The translations under genes and the position numbers were made by a program. Under the pieces are notes generated by a model, which did no database searches, was not told where the DNA came from, and saw only the letters and a program-made list of their open reading frames with translations. Positions 5,000-13,837 of a stretch of DNA of 64,000 nucleotides are shown here, piece by piece. The stretch comes from the human T2T-CHM13v2.0 reference genome, Homo sapiens: NCBI GenBank assembly GCA_009914755.4, contig CP068257.2:7584001-7648000 (forward strand). Direction: 5' to 3'. The first letter of the stretch is position 1; each line of letters opens with the position of its first letter.

Positions 5000-6790
5000 C
5001 CTCCGCCTGCTTTATTCTATACAGTGCAGCGTATGTACACCACTTCTGTGATATTGTTCCTAATATCCATGGGAAGAAAGAGTGATGTTACTCCCAAGAG
5101 CATATGGGGGTGTACATCCCTTGTGATATTATTCCTAGTATGCAGGGGCAGGGAAATGACATTACTCCCAATATTGCAGAGGGTGTACTCCCCGCCCTGT
5201 GATATTGTTCCTAATATTTAGGGGATAGTGGGTGATATTACTCCCAATATCAGAGGGGGTGTGCACCCCCCGTGGTATTCTTCCTAATATCCAGGGTGGG
5301 GGGAGAGGTTTATATTACTGTCAATGTCACAGGGGGTGTACATCCTCCCGTGGTATTGTTCCTAATATCTGGGGGGTAGAGGATATTACTGTCACTATCA
5401 CAGGGGGTGTAGACCCCTTCAGTGATATTGTTACTAATATCTGGCGGGGAGAGGATGATATTACTGTCAATATCGCAGGGGGTGTACACCCCCCGTGGTA
5501 TTGTTCCTAATATCCGGGGGGGAAGAGGAAATTACTGTCAATATCACAGTGGGTGTACACCTCTTCTGTGATATTGTTCCTAATATCCGGGGAGGAGAGG
5601 ATATTACTGTCAATATCGCAGGGAGTGTACAACCCTTCTGTGACATTGCTCCTAATATCCGGGGGTGGGAGAGGATATTACTGTCAATATCGCAGGGGGT
5701 GTACACCCCTTCTGTGATATTGTTCCCAATATTCAGGTGGGGAGAGGATCATATCACTTTCAATATCACCAAGTGTGTACATCACCATTGTGATATTGTT
5801 CCTATATTTAGGGGATAGTGGATTATATTACTGTCAATATCACAGGGGGTGTGCACCCCCCCATGGTATTGTTCCTAATGTCCAGCAAGGGAGAAAACAC
5901 TACTACTTCCAATATGGCAGGGGGTGTACACGTCCTATGGGATACTGTTCCTATATCCATGGGGGAAAAGGATATTGGGAACAATATTACAAACAATATC
6001 ACAGGGGGTGTACATGTCCTGAGATATGAGGAGTAATATAACCCTCTCCCCCTCTAGATATTACAAACTGTATCACAGAGGGGTGTAAACCCCTGCAATG
6101 TGGAAAGTAAAATCATCTTCTCCCCCACTGGATATTACAAATAATATCACAGACGGTGTACATGTGAGGTGTTTATGATATTGGGAGTAATATCATATCC
6201 CCCAGTGGATATTATGAACAATATCACAGAGGGGTGTATACACACTCTGCCTTATAGGGAGTAATATACTCCTCTCCCACCCTGGATATTACAAACAATA
6301 TCACAGAGGGTGTACACACAGGGTGTTTATGGTATTGGAAGTAGTATTATCTCCCCCATGGATATTACTAATAATATCACAGGGGTGTGTACATCCCCTG
6401 TGATACAGGGAGTAATATCATCCTTTCCCAGCCTGGATATTACAAACAATATGGCAGGGGGCAGTACACCCTGGCGATATGGGTAGTAACATCATCTCCT
6501 CCCCGCGTGGATATTATGAACAATATTCTAGGGGGTTGTACACCCCCTGCAATATGGGGAGTAGCATCATCCTCTCCCCCACTAGATATTATAAACAATA
6601 TCACAAGGGGGTGTACACTTCCTGCAATAAAAGGAGAAATATAATTCTTTCCCCCAGAGATATTATGAACAATATCGCAGGGAATTGTTCTCCCATGCTA
6701 TATGGGGAGTAACATCTTCATCTTCCCCCTGGATATTACGAAAAATAATGCAGGGGAATGTAAATCCCCTGCGATATGGGGAGTAAAATC
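5000..6790. repeat. Tandem satellite, unit about 66-86 bp. Orientation A covers 5000 to about 6030 and inverted orientation B covers about 6030 to 6790.
   Basis: The unit 'tgtgatattgttcctaatatccagggg..gagaggatgatattactcccaatatcacagggggtgtacacccc' recurs with a variable G/A-rich spacer. After about 6030 the units read as the reverse complement, 'ggatattacaaacaatatcacagaggggtgtacac'. Many short ORFs on both strands simply track the repeat. Confidence 0.85.
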
Positions 6791-6796
6791 ATTCTC

Positions 6797-7091
6797 TCTG
6801 GCCAGGAGCGGTGGCTCACACCTGTAATCCCAGCACTTTGGGAAGCCGAGGCGGGCGGATCACGAGGTCAGGAGATCGAGACCATCCTGGCTAACATGGT
6901 GAAACCCCGTCTCTACTAAAAATACAAAAAATTAGCCGGGCGTGGTGGCGGGCGCCTGTAGTCCCAGCTACTAGGGAGGCTGAGGCAGGAGAATGGTGTG
7001 AACCTGGGAGGCGGTGCTTGCAGTGTGCCAAGATCAGGCCACTGCACTCCAACCCGGGCGACAGAGCAAGGCTCTGTCTCAAAAAAAAAAA
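6797..7091 (+). mobile_element. Full-length young Alu (AluY-like) inserted in the satellite
   Basis: 'ggccaggagcggtggctcacacctgtaatcccagcactttgggaagccgaggcgggcggatcacgaggtcaggagatcgagaccatcc...' ends in poly(A) at 7080-7091. Satellite sequence resumes immediately after. Confidence 0.9.
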
Positions 7092-10070: not shown

Positions 10071-13000
10071 CGATATGTGTAGTGACTTCATACTTCACCC
10101 CCCCCCGGATATTACGGCCAATATCAGAGTGGAGTGTGCACCCCCTGCAATATGGGGAGTGATATCATCCTCTCCCCACTGGATGTTATGGACAATATCA
10201 CAGGAGGTTTACTTTCTCTGGGTTATGGGGAAAAATATCCTCCTGTCCCCGCCTGGATGTTAGACATATTTAGAGGGGGGTGTCCACCCCCTGTGATATG
10301 GGGAGTAGTAATATCCTCTCCTGCCCTGGATGTTATGGACAATATATAGGGAGATGTACAATCCCTTCGATATGGGGAGTAATATCATCCTCTTCCCCCT
10401 AAACGTTACGAACAGTATCACAGGGGGATGTACACCCCCTGCAATATCTGGAGTAGTATCATCCCCTTCTTCCCTAAATGTTACAGAGACTATCACAGGG
10501 GTGTGTACACCTTCTGAAACATGGGAATAATATTCTCTTCCCCTCTGGATGTTATTATGGACAACATTACAGCCGTGTGCACCCTCTATGATATGCAGAG
10601 TAATATCATCCTCTCCCCCCCGGATGTAAGTGACAATACCACAAACGGGTTTACATCCCCCGTGATATGGGGAGTAATATCATCCTCTTTCCCACTGGAT
10701 ATTAACAATATCACTTGGGGTGTGCAACCCCTGTGATATTCTGGATAATATCTTCTAATCCACTGAAAGTTATAAACAATATCACCAGTGTACACTCCCT
10801 GTGATATTGGAAGTAATATCATCCTCTAATCCCCTAAAAATTATGAACAGTATCACAGGGGAGTGTATACTTCCTACTATATTGGGAGTAATATCATCCT
10901 GTCGTCTTCTAAATATTATGAACAATATTACAGGGGATGTAACACTCCCTGCCATATGTGGAGTAATATCATCCTCTCCTTCCCTAAATATTGTGAACAA
11001 TATCACAGGAGGTTGTACACAATCTGCGATATTGTTTGTAGTATCCAGTGGGAAAGAGGATGCTATTACTCCCCATATCACAGGGGTTGTACACCCCCAC
11101 TGTGATATATTCAATAACATCCAGAAGTAATATTACTGACAAAATTGCAGGGGGTGTAAACCCCACCTGTGATAACGTTCCTAATATCCCTGGGAAGAGA
11201 GGATGATATTATTCCCAATATTGCAGGGGGTGTACACCCACCCTATGATATTGTTATTAATACCCAGGAGGGGAGACAATGGTATTACTCACAGTATCAA
11301 AGAGGTTGTACAGCCCCCCTGTGATAGTTTCTAATATCCAGGGGGTGTATACCACCCTTGTGATATTGTTTCTAATATGTAGGGGGAAGGACAATGATAT
11401 TACTGTCCGTATCACAGGGGGTGTACAACAAGCCGCCCGGGATATCATTCCTAATATCCATGGGAAGAAAGAATATTATAATATCACAGAAGTTGTACAC
11501 CCCCTCTGTGATATTGTTCCTAATATCAAAGACAGAAGGGTATGATGTTCTTCCCAAAATCACAGGAAGTGTATACACACCCTGTGCTATTTTTCCTAAT
11601 ATCGAGAGTGAGAGACAATGATACTTCCAATATCGTAAGGAGTGTACACTCTCCCCATGATAGCAGGTGGGGAAATGTTGATATTACTCCAAATGTCACA
11701 GTGGGTGTACACACGTTTTGCGATATTGTTCCTAATAGCAAGTGGGGAGGAGGATTGTATTACTCCCACCATATTACTCCCCACACCCCATTATACTGTT
11801 CTTAATATCCAGATTTGGAGAGGATGATATTACTCCCAAAATCTCAGGAGGTGTAGACCCCTTCTGTGATACTGTTTCTTATATCCAGGGGAAGACTAGA
11901 TGATAGTACTCCCAACAGTGCAGGGTGTTACACGCCACCCCCCATGATATTGTCTCTAATATCAAGTTGGGGAGAGGATGATATTGCTCCAAAGGTGCAC
12001 ACCAGCACTGTGATATTATTCCTAGTATCCAGAGAAGGAGAGAATGGTATTATTTTTAATATCACAGAGGGTGCACACCCCCCTTGTGATACTGCTCCTA
12101 ACATCCAAGGGGTAGAGGATGAAATTACTCCCAATATCACAGTGGGTATAAACCCCCCGTGGTATTGTTCCTAATATCCAGGGGGTATAGGATGATAGTA
12201 CTATAAATATCGCAAGGGGTGTACACCCTTCTGATATTGTTACTAATATCCGTGGGGGGAGTCGATGATATTACTTCCAATATCACAGGGCATGTACACC
12301 CCCCTTGTGATATTGTTCCTAATATCCTGGGAGGAGACTACGATATTACTGGCAATATCGCAGGGTGTGTGCATTCCCGTGATATTGTTCCTAATGTCCA
12401 GCAATGGAGAAAATATTACTCCCAATATGGTGGGGGTGTACACTTCCCATGCGATATCATTCCTAATATCCATGGGGGAAAAGGATGATATTACTCTAAA
12501 TGTCGCAGGAGGTGTAAACCGCCCCTGTGATATTGTTCTCAATATCCATGGGGGGAGAGAATGATATTACTCCCAATATCACAGGTGGTGTACACCCCTC
12601 CTGTTATATTATTCCTAATATCCAGGTTGGGAGAGAATAATATTACAGGTAAAATAGCAGGGGGTGTACACTCCGCCTGTGATATTGTTCCTAATATCTC
12701 GGGGAAGAGTGGACAATATTACTCTCAATATCGCAGGATGTGTACACCCCCTTTGTGATATTGTTCCTAATATCCATAGGGGGAGAGGGTGATACCACTC
12801 CCAATAGTGCAGAAAAGGTACAGCCCCGCTGTGATATCATTCCTAATATCCAGAGGGGACAGGATGATATTACTCCCAATATCAGAGAGGGCATACACCC
12901 CCTCCCCATGATATTGTTCATAATACCCAGGGGGTAGAGGATGATATTACTCCCAATATCACAGTGGGTGTACAACCACCCTGTGATATTGTTCCTTATA

Positions 13001-13837
13001 TTCGGGGGAGAGACAATGATATAGCTGTCCATATTGCAGGTGGTGTACAACCCCCTGGGAATTTGTTCCTAATATTCAGTGGGGAAGATGATATTAATTA
13101 AAATGTCACGGGGGTTATACAACCCCTTTGTGATATTATTCCTAATATCCAGGGAAAGAAAGAATATTATTCCCAATATTGCAGGGGATGTACACCCCTC
13201 TCTGATACTCTTTCTAATATCCCTGGGGGGAGTCTATAATATTACTGGCAATATCATAAGGAGTGTATACCCCCCGTTATATTGTTCCTTATGTCCAGCA
13301 AGGGAGAAAATATTAATCCCAATATGGAACAGGGTGTAGACACCCATGAGTTATTGTTCCTAATATCCAGGGAGGGAAAGGATGATATTACTCCCAATGT
13401 TGCAGTGGTGTATAACCCCCCGTGATATTGTTCCTAATATCTAGGTGGGGAAAGTACAGTATTACTCCCAATATAGCAGGGGTTGTACACCACCTTTGTG
13501 ATATTGTTCTACATATCCATGGGGAAAGAAAATGATAGTACTCCCCAATATCACAGGTGGTGTACAACCCCTTGTGATACTGTTTCTAATATCCATGTTG
13601 GGGGAGGATATTACTCCCAATATTGCACGTGTTGCACAGACCCCCTTTGATATTGCTTGTACTATGCAGGGTGTGGGGGGAGAGGATGATATTGGGAGTA
13701 ATATCACCCTCTCTCCCCGGATATTAAAAGCAACATTCAGGGTGGTCGACACTTCCTGCAATATTGAGTATAATATCCTCTCCCAACCTGGATATTAGGA
13801 ACAATATCACAGGGGCATGTACACTCCCTTCCTTTCA
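10071..13837. repeat. Continuation of the same ~70-bp satellite. Orientation B covers 10071 to about 11040, orientation A about 11040 to 13690, and orientation B again about 13690 to 13837.
   Basis: The same unit as at 5000-6790. Orientation switches are visible where 'ggatattacNNNcaatatcacagg' units give way to 'gtgatattgttcctaatatcc' units. Confidence 0.85.

What the first reader, a model, noticed from the sequence alone, without database searches (positions are those of the whole stretch)
5000..13837. Satellite whose monomer contains a 20-bp internal inverted repeat, and whose array changes polarity three times
Each unit of about 70 bp contains 'GTGATATTGttccTAATATC' and, 35-40 bp later, 'GATATTActccCAATATCAC'. 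These are reverse complements of each other except for the 4-bp centre, so every monomer can form a hairpin or cruciform. At the array level the polarity flips at about 6030, 11040 and 13690. Units read 'gtgatattgttcctaatatcc' in one orientation and 'ggatattaNNNacaatatcacag' in the other. These are local inversions within a homogeneous array. The inserted AluY at 6797 and the NUMT both lie in segments with the inverted orientation. Multiple breakpoints plus dyad-symmetric monomers suggest a recombination-prone, secondary-structure-forming satellite. I cannot assign it to a named family from memory. It is not alpha, beta or the (GGAAT)n HSat2/3 type.
Basis: seen in the sequence. Interest (0 to 1): 0.5.

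Follow-up and report, generated by a model that had tools for sequence, protein, structure and literature searches.

The report
Old SATR1 satellite with strand switches
This is an old, decayed copy of a known primate satellite (most likely SATR1) whose 75-bp unit is almost a palindrome and whose array changes direction three times, always on a symmetric part of the unit; it is an ordinary kind of feature.

Summary
Window 5021-13837 carries 77 monomers of a 74-76 bp satellite. Polarity runs + (5021-6011), - (6017-7144 and 10065-11015), + (11023-13687), - (13706-13837). The - block is split by an AluY and by an old three-piece NUMT.

The unit is nested dyads: a GGGGGTGTACACCCCC palindrome plus two arms, GTGATATTG-nnnn-TAATATC and its complement. 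Only the G-rich spacer and the arm loops give it polarity.

- The array is not homogeneous. Mean monomer identity is 0.71.
- Only 25 of 77 units keep both arms, and only about 30% fold significantly.
- The family is not unnamed. Other copies lie next to a class-I ERV and OR7E genes, and in a GC-rich variant / inverted / AT-rich spacer / forward layout. Both layouts are published for SATR1/SATR2.

All three switches recur in 5-8 independent contigs at 90-99% identity, so they are real and predate a segmental duplication.

Switches 1 and 2 sit one period apart from spacer to spacer, on the palindrome. They probably mark one inversion. Switch 3 sits on an arm. Strand switches in decayed satellites are already known, so interest is low.

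The parts
5021..6011 (+). Block B1: 13 monomers in + polarity (G-rich spacer on the top strand). The local variant has the arm A' loop ACTGTC.
   Evidence: nhmmer; block consensus; blastn orientation
5971..6019 (.). Switch 1 (+ to -, tail-to-tail). The order is G-rich spacer 5958-5970, an arm with a 12-bp internal duplication 5971-6004, palindrome 6005-6019 (GTAC at 6010-6013), an arm, then C-rich spacer 6040-6056.
   Evidence: Sequence. Spacer-to-spacer distance is 77-78, one period. The same junction occurs in L019, L060, L090, L099 and L114.
6017..6798 (-). Block B2: left part of the inverted block. Its variants are TTTG/TTCA arm loops and CCCCATAT.
6799..7093 (+). AluY-type insertion with a poly(A) tail. 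It is flanked by the 13-bp target-site duplication AAATCATTCTCTC at 6786-6798 and 7094-7106.
   Evidence: Rfam SRP and mir-1268 sub-threshold hits.
7094..7144 (-). Remainder of the B2 monomer that the Alu interrupted. It ends in GGGGAGTGTACA.
7145..10064 (.). Composite ancient NUMT in three pieces. (1) About 7148-7700: the 3' part of 12S rRNA on the - strand, recognised from memory only. (2) About 7700-9100: COX1 5' part plus a tRNA cluster on the - strand. (3) About 9100-10064: COX3, tRNA-Gly and ND3 on the + strand. It is inserted between GGGGAGTGTACA and TCCC, inside a palindrome, with the monomer phase preserved.
   Evidence: Translations. Pfam COX3 1.9e-63, COX1 3.8e-34, ND3 1.5e-12. Rfam tRNA 8811-8877. 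COX3 scores about the same against human (241 bits) and the next solved mammalian chains (about 234 bits).
10065..11015 (-). Block B3: right part of the inverted block, 13 monomers. It shares CCCCATAT with B2.
11007..11025 (.). Switch 2 (- to +, head-to-head), centred on the palindrome GGAGGTTGTACACAATCT (GTAC at 11015-11018).
   Evidence: Sequence. Spacer-to-spacer distance is 76. The same junction occurs in 8 other contigs.
11023..13687 (+). Block B4: about 37 monomers in + polarity. Its first monomer still carries the B2/B3-type variants.
13688..13705 (.). Switch 3 (+ to -), centred on an arm. GATATTGGGAGTAATATC lies between a G-rich and a C-rich spacer.
   Evidence: Sequence. Spacer-to-spacer distance is 34, half a period. 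The same junction occurs in L040, L047, L055, L058 and L091.
13706..13837 (-). Block B5: two monomers in - polarity. The array ends against an L1 fragment.
   Evidence: The L1 is recognised from the sequence, from memory.

Best explanation
Window 5021-13837 is an old, decayed array of a known primate satellite, most likely SATR1. SATR1 and SATR2 flank HERV-E and OR7E genes in the Xiao/DA core duplicons. The array lies inside a segmental duplication.

The 75-bp unit is in effect an inverted dimer of a 37-bp half-unit:
- a 16-nt palindrome, GGGGGTGTACACCCCC;
- arm A, CTGTGATATTG-TTCC-TAATATC;
- a G-rich spacer;
- arm A', GATATTA-CTCC-CAATATCACAG.
Only the spacer and the 4-6 nt arm loops are asymmetric.

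Inferred mechanism. Every palindrome and arm is its own inverted repeat. Two routes can therefore reverse array polarity without disturbing the repeat phase. One is exchange between two such elements in different units. The other is fold-back or template switching at one of them during replication or repair.

For this window, switches 1 and 2 are both on the palindrome, one tail-to-tail and one head-to-head. They are best read as the two ends of a single ancient inversion of about 25 monomers. Switch 3 is on an arm, 140 bp from the array end, and is a separate event.

An AluY (by target-primed reverse transcription, the L1-driven insertion route) and a three-piece NUMT (captured at a break 2 nt from a palindrome centre) landed in the - block (order relative to the inversion unresolved). 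The whole composite was then copied by segmental duplication. No cellular function is implied.
For: Shown:
- Anatomy and polarity.
- Decay: identity 0.71, no higher-order repeat.
- The consensus folds at z of -3.2 and -4.2, while real units average z of -1.4 to -1.6.
- All three switches, the Alu and the NUMT are present in independent contigs at 90.6-98.7% identity.

Identity:
- Other copies of the same satellite abut class-I ERV gag/pro/pol ORFs and an OR7E24-like ORF with 86-93% identity to great-ape proteins. This matches 'SATR-HERVE-SATR' and 'OR7E flanked by SATR2, SATR1 and ERV1'.
- L069, L087, L092 and L027 show a GC-rich variant, then an inverted array, then an AT-rich spacer, then a forward array. 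This matches the published SATR1v/SATR1 core unit.
- hsa-mir-3683 (82 nt) lies inside a RepeatMasker SATR1 annotation.

Mechanism:
- Same-strand spacer-to-spacer distance has a median of 75 (5-95% range 70.5-78).
- Across polarity junctions the distance is 72-78 at eight junctions in seven clusters and 34 at one. Five others are in phase apart from 12-17 bp indels. Random breakpoints would spread over 0-150.
- L067 4815-4980 is a 165-bp palindrome with 79 of 82 mirrored pairs. One monomer has been mirror-copied about the GTAC element.
- Paralogues L001 and L005 carry an extra palindrome-centred switch that the window lacks.
Against: - No comparison with the curated SATR1 consensus was possible. 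The SATR1-versus-SATR2 call rests on a miR-3683 sequence recalled from memory.
- The window's own junctions show no mirror similarity above background. Inversion, inverted duplication and juxtaposition therefore cannot be told apart for them.
- Switch 1 has a 12-bp duplication and the 'wrong' loop type in the adjacent arm, so its exact exchange point is uncertain.
- About six further polarity changes in related loci are separated by 54-450 bp of other sequence and are not seamless.
- The related contigs were found with a 20-mer from the best-conserved arm, and their host species is unknown.
- The NUMT at a palindrome centre is a single case. By chance the probability is about 7% for the palindrome alone.
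Confidence: 0.7

Rival explanations
1. The polarity switches come from ordinary random-breakpoint inversions (end joining), or from joining separately evolved arrays. On this view the dyad symmetry of the unit plays no causal part.
For: - Blocks carry their own variants: B1 has ACTGTC, and B2/B3 have CCCCATAT and TTTG/TCCA.
- Decayed satellites of other families also accumulate strand switches and TE insertions.
- Some polarity changes in related loci have 54-450 bp of other sequence between the arrays.
Against: - Eight junctions keep the repeat phase exactly (72-78 bp) and one is at 34 bp. Five more keep it apart from small indels. Random breakpoints would give this in roughly 9% of cases each.
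- The B2/B3 variant domain runs one monomer past switch 2. That fits a break inside a pre-existing array.
- L067 shows a clean mirror copy centred on the palindrome.
Confidence: 0.18
2. The dyad symmetry is kept by selection because the unit works as a hairpin RNA (as the mir-3683 annotation suggests) or as a palindromic protein-binding site. On this view the switches are incidental.
For: - mir-3683 is annotated inside a SATR1 array.
- The arms are the best-conserved columns, at 80-90% across 1703 unique monomers.
- Compensatory double changes in the outer long-range stem are 1.35-fold over expectation, and 1.9-3.6-fold at columns 12-16/55-59. Control pairs give 1.00.
- ZNF141 and ZBTB24 ChIP signals over SATR1 have been reported.
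Against: - In the window only 25 of 77 units keep both arms and about 30% fold significantly.
- The inner stem and the local arm hairpins show no compensatory excess, at 0.83-1.06.
- Relatedness among monomers, or mirror-copying events, can mimic covariation.
- No Rfam family matches the units.
Confidence: 0.08
3. The switches are assembly artefacts in a repetitive region.
For: Inverted repeats in satellites are a classic cause of misassembly. The macaque paper calls palindromic satellite arrays a barrier to assembly.
Against: Switch 1 is found in 5 other contigs, switch 2 in 8 and switch 3 in 5. These come from different metagenome assemblies, at 90-99% identity across each junction.
Confidence: 0.02

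Closest known systems
SATR1 / SATR2 (Repbase/Dfam primate satellites; the 'SATR-HERVE-SATR' flanks of Xiao and DA core duplicons)
   Same: Copies of the window's satellite elsewhere lie next to class-I ERV pol/gag and OR7E24-like genes, as published for SATR1/SATR2. Mixed arrays occur with a GC-rich variant, an inverted block, an AT-rich spacer and a forward block, as published for macaque SATR1v/SATR1.
   Different: This copy lies outside a Xiao-type setting. No ERV or OR ORF was found among the window ORFs tested. Identity with the curated consensus was not tested.
Strand switches in decayed human satellites (monomeric alpha satellite, HSat3B5 on chr9, beta satellite)
   Same: An old divergent array that has gathered inversion breakpoints and TE insertions, as described for T2T-CHM13.
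   Different: Here the unit itself is nearly palindromic, and the switches fall on its dyad centres with the phase preserved. Whether that also holds for the other families was not examined.
hsa-mir-3683 precursor
   Same: An 82-nt annotated hairpin lying wholly inside a SATR1 array. Its length fits one dyad-symmetric unit. The mature sequence as I recall it matches three window units at 3 mismatches, where 0 are expected by chance.
   Different: The miRNA sequence comes from memory and could not be found in the paper library. It maps to chr7 and not to this locus.
Palindromic AT-rich repeats (PATRRs) and other cruciform-prone palindromes at rearrangement hotspots
   Same: Short inverted repeats able to extrude hairpins, with rearrangement junctions at the centre of symmetry.
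   Different: From general knowledge, PATRRs are single near-perfect palindromes several hundred bp long. Here the dyads are at most 59 nt and about 73% complementary in real units, and the predicted stability is modest at about -9 kcal/mol.

Membership tests
SATR1/SATR2 satellite family | Sequence match to the curated Repbase/Dfam consensus or HMM | not testable with these tools
   No Dfam or RepeatMasker is available. Literature searches for monomer strings found nothing.
SATR1/SATR2 satellite family | Copies flank a modified HERV-E and OR7E genes (Xiao/DA 'SES' element) | tested here: met
   L025 has pol RNase H and integrase, then a 3.5-kb satellite, then a 320-aa OR ORF. L088, L072 and L036 have gag/pro/RT/RNase H. 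L010 has an OR. The OR is 86-93% identical to great-ape 'olfactory receptor 7E24-like'. This was met in related loci, not in the window itself.
SATR1/SATR2 satellite family | Mixed arrays in the order GC-rich variant, inverted SATR1 block, AT-rich spacer, forward SATR1 block | tested here: met
   L069 and L087 show the full order; L092 and L027 show only the inverted-array / AT-rich spacer / forward-array part. It matches the macaque core unit.
SATR1/SATR2 satellite family | Contains the hsa-mir-3683 hairpin sequence (SATR1 specifically) | tested here: inconclusive
   The supplement places mir-3683 inside a SATR1 annotation. The mature sequence I used is from memory. It matches three window units at 3 mismatches.
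Alpha satellite | 171-bp monomer | tested here: not met
   The period is 74-76, and median unit spacing is 75.
Beta satellite (Sau3A family) | 68-bp monomer | tested here: not met
   The period is 74-76 with a 5-95% range of 70.5-78. The consensus does not resemble the beta unit as I recall it.
Cruciform-prone long palindromes (PATRR type) | A single near-perfect palindrome of 100 bp or more | tested here: not met
   The longest dyads in the sampled window stretch (12500-12800) have 59-nt arms at 73% complementarity. A 165-bp near-perfect palindrome exists only in related locus L067.
Structured RNA / miRNA gene | A hairpin kept by compensatory change, or a match to a curated RNA family | tested here: inconclusive
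   No Rfam match to the units even at E up to 10. There is a weak compensatory excess, 1.35-fold, in one stem only.

The most novel reading that the evidence does not exclude
The nested-palindrome unit of SATR1 may be a built-in rearrangement substrate. Hairpin or cruciform formation at the GTAC palindrome and at the arms would repeatedly cause fold-back inverted duplications, inversions between units, and breaks that capture foreign DNA such as the NUMT here. This would help explain why the SATR-bearing Xiao/DA core duplicons sit at breakpoints of the 8p23.1 inversions and duplicative transpositions.
Probability: 0.2. Interest if true: 0.5.

Novelty: already known. Interest (0 to 1): 0.25.

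Why it matters
As a feature, this is a known satellite family inside a known type of segmental duplication, and strand switches in decayed satellites are well documented.

One point may be new. The unit is almost wholly dyad-symmetric. In the 120 contigs sampled, polarity switches fall on its symmetric elements with the repeat phase preserved, and one copy shows a fresh mirror duplication. If that holds genome-wide, it gives a concrete and testable mechanism for instability at SATR-bearing core duplicons, which mark breakpoints of 8p23.1 rearrangements.

The work also shows that host-derived contigs in metagenome assemblies can serve as independent checks on repeat structure.

Tried and rejected
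- A 37-bp sub-period: the two arms are also direct repeats of each other, but autocorrelation at lags 34-40 is only 0.20-0.30 against 0.40-0.46 at 74-76.
- Higher-order repeat structure: none. Identity by monomer offset is flat, and long self-alignments are 67-77% in every register.
- Mirror similarity around the window's switches, as expected for a recent inverted duplication: 0.73-0.77, within the range of controls.
- An ungapped dyad-score scan gave no useful peaks because of indels. A free-end mirror alignment of junctions gave short, unreliable alignments and was dropped.
- Literature searches for monomer strings and for the miR-3683 sequence found nothing. Several miR-3683 papers give no sequence. 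REP522 was considered, but from memory its mir-5701 hairpin does not resemble this unit.
- The Ji & Zhao 2008, Newman & Trask 2003 and Altemose 2022 PMC copies are not held.
- Rfam at E up to 10 gave only chance or Alu-derived hits over the units.
- ARAGORN found no tRNA in the NUMT. Rfam found one.
- Ten of the window's 51 ORFs of 110 aa or more were scanned with Pfam and none gave a hit, so no ERV or OR gene was found in this copy.

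
Full report
**What is there**

The window is primate, most likely human; the satellite interval holds an AluY and a NUMT. TRF reports period 74-76 arrays across 5034-6798, 10100-11343 and 12008-13623 with 67-76% matches.

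A search with the consensus unit (nhmmer) finds 77 units between 5042 and 13819. Each is called on one strand at 14-51 bits, against at most 12 bits on the other strand. The polarity map is:
- + at 5021-6011 (block B1, 13 units);
- - at 6017-6798 and 7094-7144 (B2);
- - at 10065-11015 (B3);
- + at 11023-13687 (B4, about 37 units);
- - at 13706-13837 (B5, 2 units).

An independent blastn between blocks gives 600-950 bp alignments only in the predicted relative orientation. In the other orientation it gives only 28-53 bp hits that come from the symmetric arms.

**Anatomy of the unit**

The consensus is CTGTGATATTG-TTCC-TAATATC / CAGGGGGGAGAGGAT / GATATTA-CTCC-CAATATCACAG / GGGGGTGTACACCCCC.
- The last element is a perfect 16-nt palindrome.
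- Together with its flanks it extends to a 36-nt perfect palindrome, CAATATCACAGGGGGTGTACACCCCCTGTGATATTG.
- The two arms are reverse complements except for their 4-nt centres.
- Each arm is also a small hairpin of its own (GATATT-6 nt-AATATC). The arms are therefore direct repeats of each other as well.

The 75-bp unit thus looks like an inverted dimer of a 37-bp half-unit. Only the spacer and the arm loops give it polarity (and direct reading). The arm motif occurs 86 times at up to 2 mismatches, all within 5048-13810, where 0.07 are expected. The palindrome core occurs 51 times where 2.35 are expected. The repeat finder shows the nested dyads.

**Folding**

As single-stranded DNA the consensus folds at -18.2 and -18.1 kcal/mol in its two registers, with z of -3.2 and -4.2. 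Real units are much weaker:
- mean -8.9 kcal/mol;
- mean z of -1.4 and -1.6;
- about 30% have z below -2, against 3% of control 74-mers from the window.

Only 25 of 77 units keep both arms at up to 2 mismatches; 37 keep one arm and 15 keep neither. 'Every monomer can form a hairpin' describes the ancestral unit, not the present copies.

**Age and homogeneity**

Mean pairwise identity between units is 0.71. Within blocks it is 0.70-0.76 and between blocks 0.69-0.73. There is no higher-order repeat. Blocks have their own variants: B1 has ACTGTC in arm A', and B2/B3 have CCCCATAT and TTTG/TCCA loops. B2 and B3 share their variants, and the unit phase continues across the NUMT. They are therefore one - block of about 25 units.

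The NUMT (7145-10064) is a three-piece composite:
- 12S rRNA on the - strand (recognised from memory);
- COX1 plus tRNAs on the - strand;
- COX3, tRNA-Gly and ND3 on the + strand.

Its COX3 scores about the same against human (241 bits) and the next solved mammalian chains (about 234 bits). It is therefore an old insertion, and the array is at least as old. The NUMT sits between GGGGAGTGTACA and TCCC, 2 nt from a palindrome centre, with no loss of satellite sequence.

The Alu (6799-7093) has a 13-bp target-site duplication.

**Are the switches real?**

A scan of public metagenome contigs for one 20-mer of the arm returned 120 host-derived contigs. Megablast shows contigs 90.6-98.7% identical to the window. 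These include L079 over 7270-11712, L005 over 7301-12401, L096 over 9852-12960, L047/L058/L091 over 7115-20000 and L019 over 3759-6937.

Clustering 400-bp junction windows puts switch 2 with 8 other contigs, switch 3 with 5 and switch 1 with 5. The switches, the Alu and the NUMT are therefore not assembly artefacts. They predate the duplication, or speciation, that produced these copies.

**What family is it?**

I could not run RepeatMasker, so the name rests on context.
- (i) In other contigs the same satellite abuts class-I retroviral ORFs (Gag_p30, protease, RT, RNase H, integrase) and an intact olfactory-receptor ORF. The closest named relatives of that ORF are great-ape 'olfactory receptor 7E24-like' proteins at 86-93% identity. 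This is the published Xiao/DA architecture: 'SATR-HERVE-SATR' flanks, and OR7E 'flanked by SATR2, SATR1 and ERV1'.
- (ii) L069 and L087 show a GC-rich variant array, then an inverted array, then a 270-450 bp AT-rich spacer, then a forward array; L092 and L027 show the spacer between the inverted and forward arrays. This matches the SATR1v / inverted SATR1 / AT-rich rnd6 / forward SATR1 core unit described in macaque.
- (iii) The 82-nt hsa-mir-3683 precursor lies inside a RepeatMasker SATR1 annotation. Its mature sequence as I remember it matches three window units at 3 mismatches, where none is expected. This third point is a lead from memory, not a test.

Together these make SATR1 (or SATR1/SATR2) the likely name.

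**Where the switches sit**

Between neighbouring same-strand units, the spacer-to-spacer distance has a median of 75 bp (5-95% range 70.5-78, n = 2388). Across polarity junctions the distances are as follows:

| Junction | Distance (bp) | Reading |
|---|---|---|
| Window switch 1 | 77-78 | on the palindrome |
| Window switch 2 | 76 | on the palindrome |
| L001/L005 | 77 | on the palindrome |
| L069/L087 | 75 | on the palindrome |
| L021 | 76 | on the palindrome |
| L067 (two junctions) | 72 and 78 | on the palindrome |
| Window switch 3 | 34 | on an arm |
| L035, L016, L097, L081, L007 | 49, 54, 61, 92, 105 | in phase apart from 12-17 bp indels |

In the palindrome class one arm, the palindrome and one arm lie between opposite spacers. 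In the arm class a single arm does. Direct reading of the junctions agrees.

With random breakpoints the distance would range over 0-150. Exact phase would then be expected in roughly one junction in ten, whereas nine of the 14 measurable junctions (eight of the 13 junction clusters) show it.

About six further polarity changes in related loci are separated by 54-450 bp of other sequence. Several of these are the canonical AT-rich spacer.

**A fresh event**

L067 4815-4980 is a 165-bp palindrome with 79 of 82 mirrored positions complementary. One unit has been mirror-copied about the GTAC element and ends at the next GTAC element. This is what fold-back priming or template switching at the palindrome would produce.

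Paralogues L001 and L005 also carry a palindrome-centred switch at the equivalent of window position about 12440, which the window lacks. Such events therefore continued after the duplication. The window's own junctions show no mirror similarity above background, so they are old and their exact mode of origin is lost.

**Most likely history (inference)**

Switches 1 and 2 are both palindrome-centred, one tail-to-tail and one head-to-head. They are the pair expected from a single inversion between two palindromes about 25 units apart. The B2/B3 variant domain runs one unit beyond switch 2. That fits a break inside a pre-existing array better than the joining of unrelated arrays.

Switch 3 is a separate, arm-centred event near the array end. 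Both the Alu and the NUMT lie in the - block, but this carries no weight. That block is one segment holding about a third of the units.

**Is the symmetry maintained?**

Over 1703 unique units from all loci, the arms are the best-conserved columns. Compensatory double changes are 1.35-fold over expectation in the outer long-range stem, and 1.9-3.6-fold at columns 12-16/55-59. They are 0.83-1.10 for the other pairings and 1.00 for control pairs. This signal is weak. It could come from selection, from mirror-copying events, or from relatedness among units.

**Comparison with what is known**

Strand switches and TE insertions are a documented property of decayed human satellites. Divergent alpha satellite contains many inversions, and the chr9 HSat3B5 and beta satellite arrays contain over 200 inversion breakpoints. 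Palindromic SATR configurations have been described in macaque. SATR1/SATR2 mark breakpoints of 8p23.1 rearrangements.

The finding is therefore a known family with a known kind of rearrangement. The one part I did not find described is the phase-preserving placement of the switches on the unit's own dyad centres. That is a modest observation which can be tested genome-wide.

**Verdict**

Novelty: already known. Interest: low, 0.25.

Noticed in passing
window 7145-10064: The NUMT is a three-piece composite: 12S on the - strand, COX1 plus tRNAs on the - strand, and COX3, tRNA-Gly and ND3 on the + strand. A (TA)-rich low-complexity insertion lies at about 9840-9890 inside ND3. Its COX3 scores about the same against human and the next solved mammalian chains, so the insertion is ancient. 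It entered 2 nt from the centre of a GTAC palindrome with no loss of satellite sequence.
   Followed up: partly
window 56122-60359: A 48-bp satellite with 88.6 copies at 80% matches. It contains an Rfam mir-1299 hit at 58461-58543 (-), 93.3 bits against a gathering score of 89. PMC3059204 states that mir-1299 derives from the CER satellite.
   Followed up: partly
window 37877-38978: A degenerate interstitial (CCCTAA)n array at 37877-38180 is followed by GC-rich 46/100-bp and 29-bp tandem repeats at 38600-38978. From memory this looks like a relic subtelomeric end (TAR1-like).
   Followed up: no
window 39607-42299: A GC-rich tandem repeat of 200-230 bp is interrupted by a 200-bp (AT)n tract at 40522-40721.
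   Followed up: no
window 42786-45527: A 147-bp tandem repeat at 43264-44819 (10.6 copies) keeps one frame open. This produces a 913-aa ORF on the - strand that is almost certainly an artefact of the repeat.
   Followed up: no
window 34000-35050: A 69% GC stretch made of about 300-bp direct repeats. Its 177-204 aa ORFs have no Pfam match.
   Followed up: partly
window 61569-62177: Two adjacent tandem repeats: 157 bp x 2.0 at 92% and 100 bp x 3.0 at 89%.
   Followed up: no
L005 about 1083 and L001 about 697: Contigs otherwise 97% identical to window 7301-12401 carry an extra palindrome-centred polarity switch at the equivalent of window position about 12440. The window lacks it. The junction is seen in assemblies of two different samples.
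   Followed up: partly
L067 4815-4980: A 165-bp near-perfect palindrome with 79 of 82 mirrored pairs. One satellite unit has been mirror-duplicated about the GTAC element. A second, half-unit inverted insert lies at 3728-3758 in the same contig.
   Followed up: yes
L069 1802-2223, L092 42-493, L027 3696-3969: An AT-rich spacer of 270-450 bp separates an inverted array from a forward array of the satellite. In L069 a GC-rich variant array comes before them. This matches the SATR1v / SATR1 / rnd6 core unit published for macaque.
   Followed up: partly
L025 610-7561; L010 2243-3253: Retroviral pol (RNase H, integrase) runs straight into 3.5 kb of the satellite, followed by an intact 320-337 aa OR7E24-like olfactory receptor ORF. 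This is the Xiao/DA duplicon layout.
   Followed up: yes
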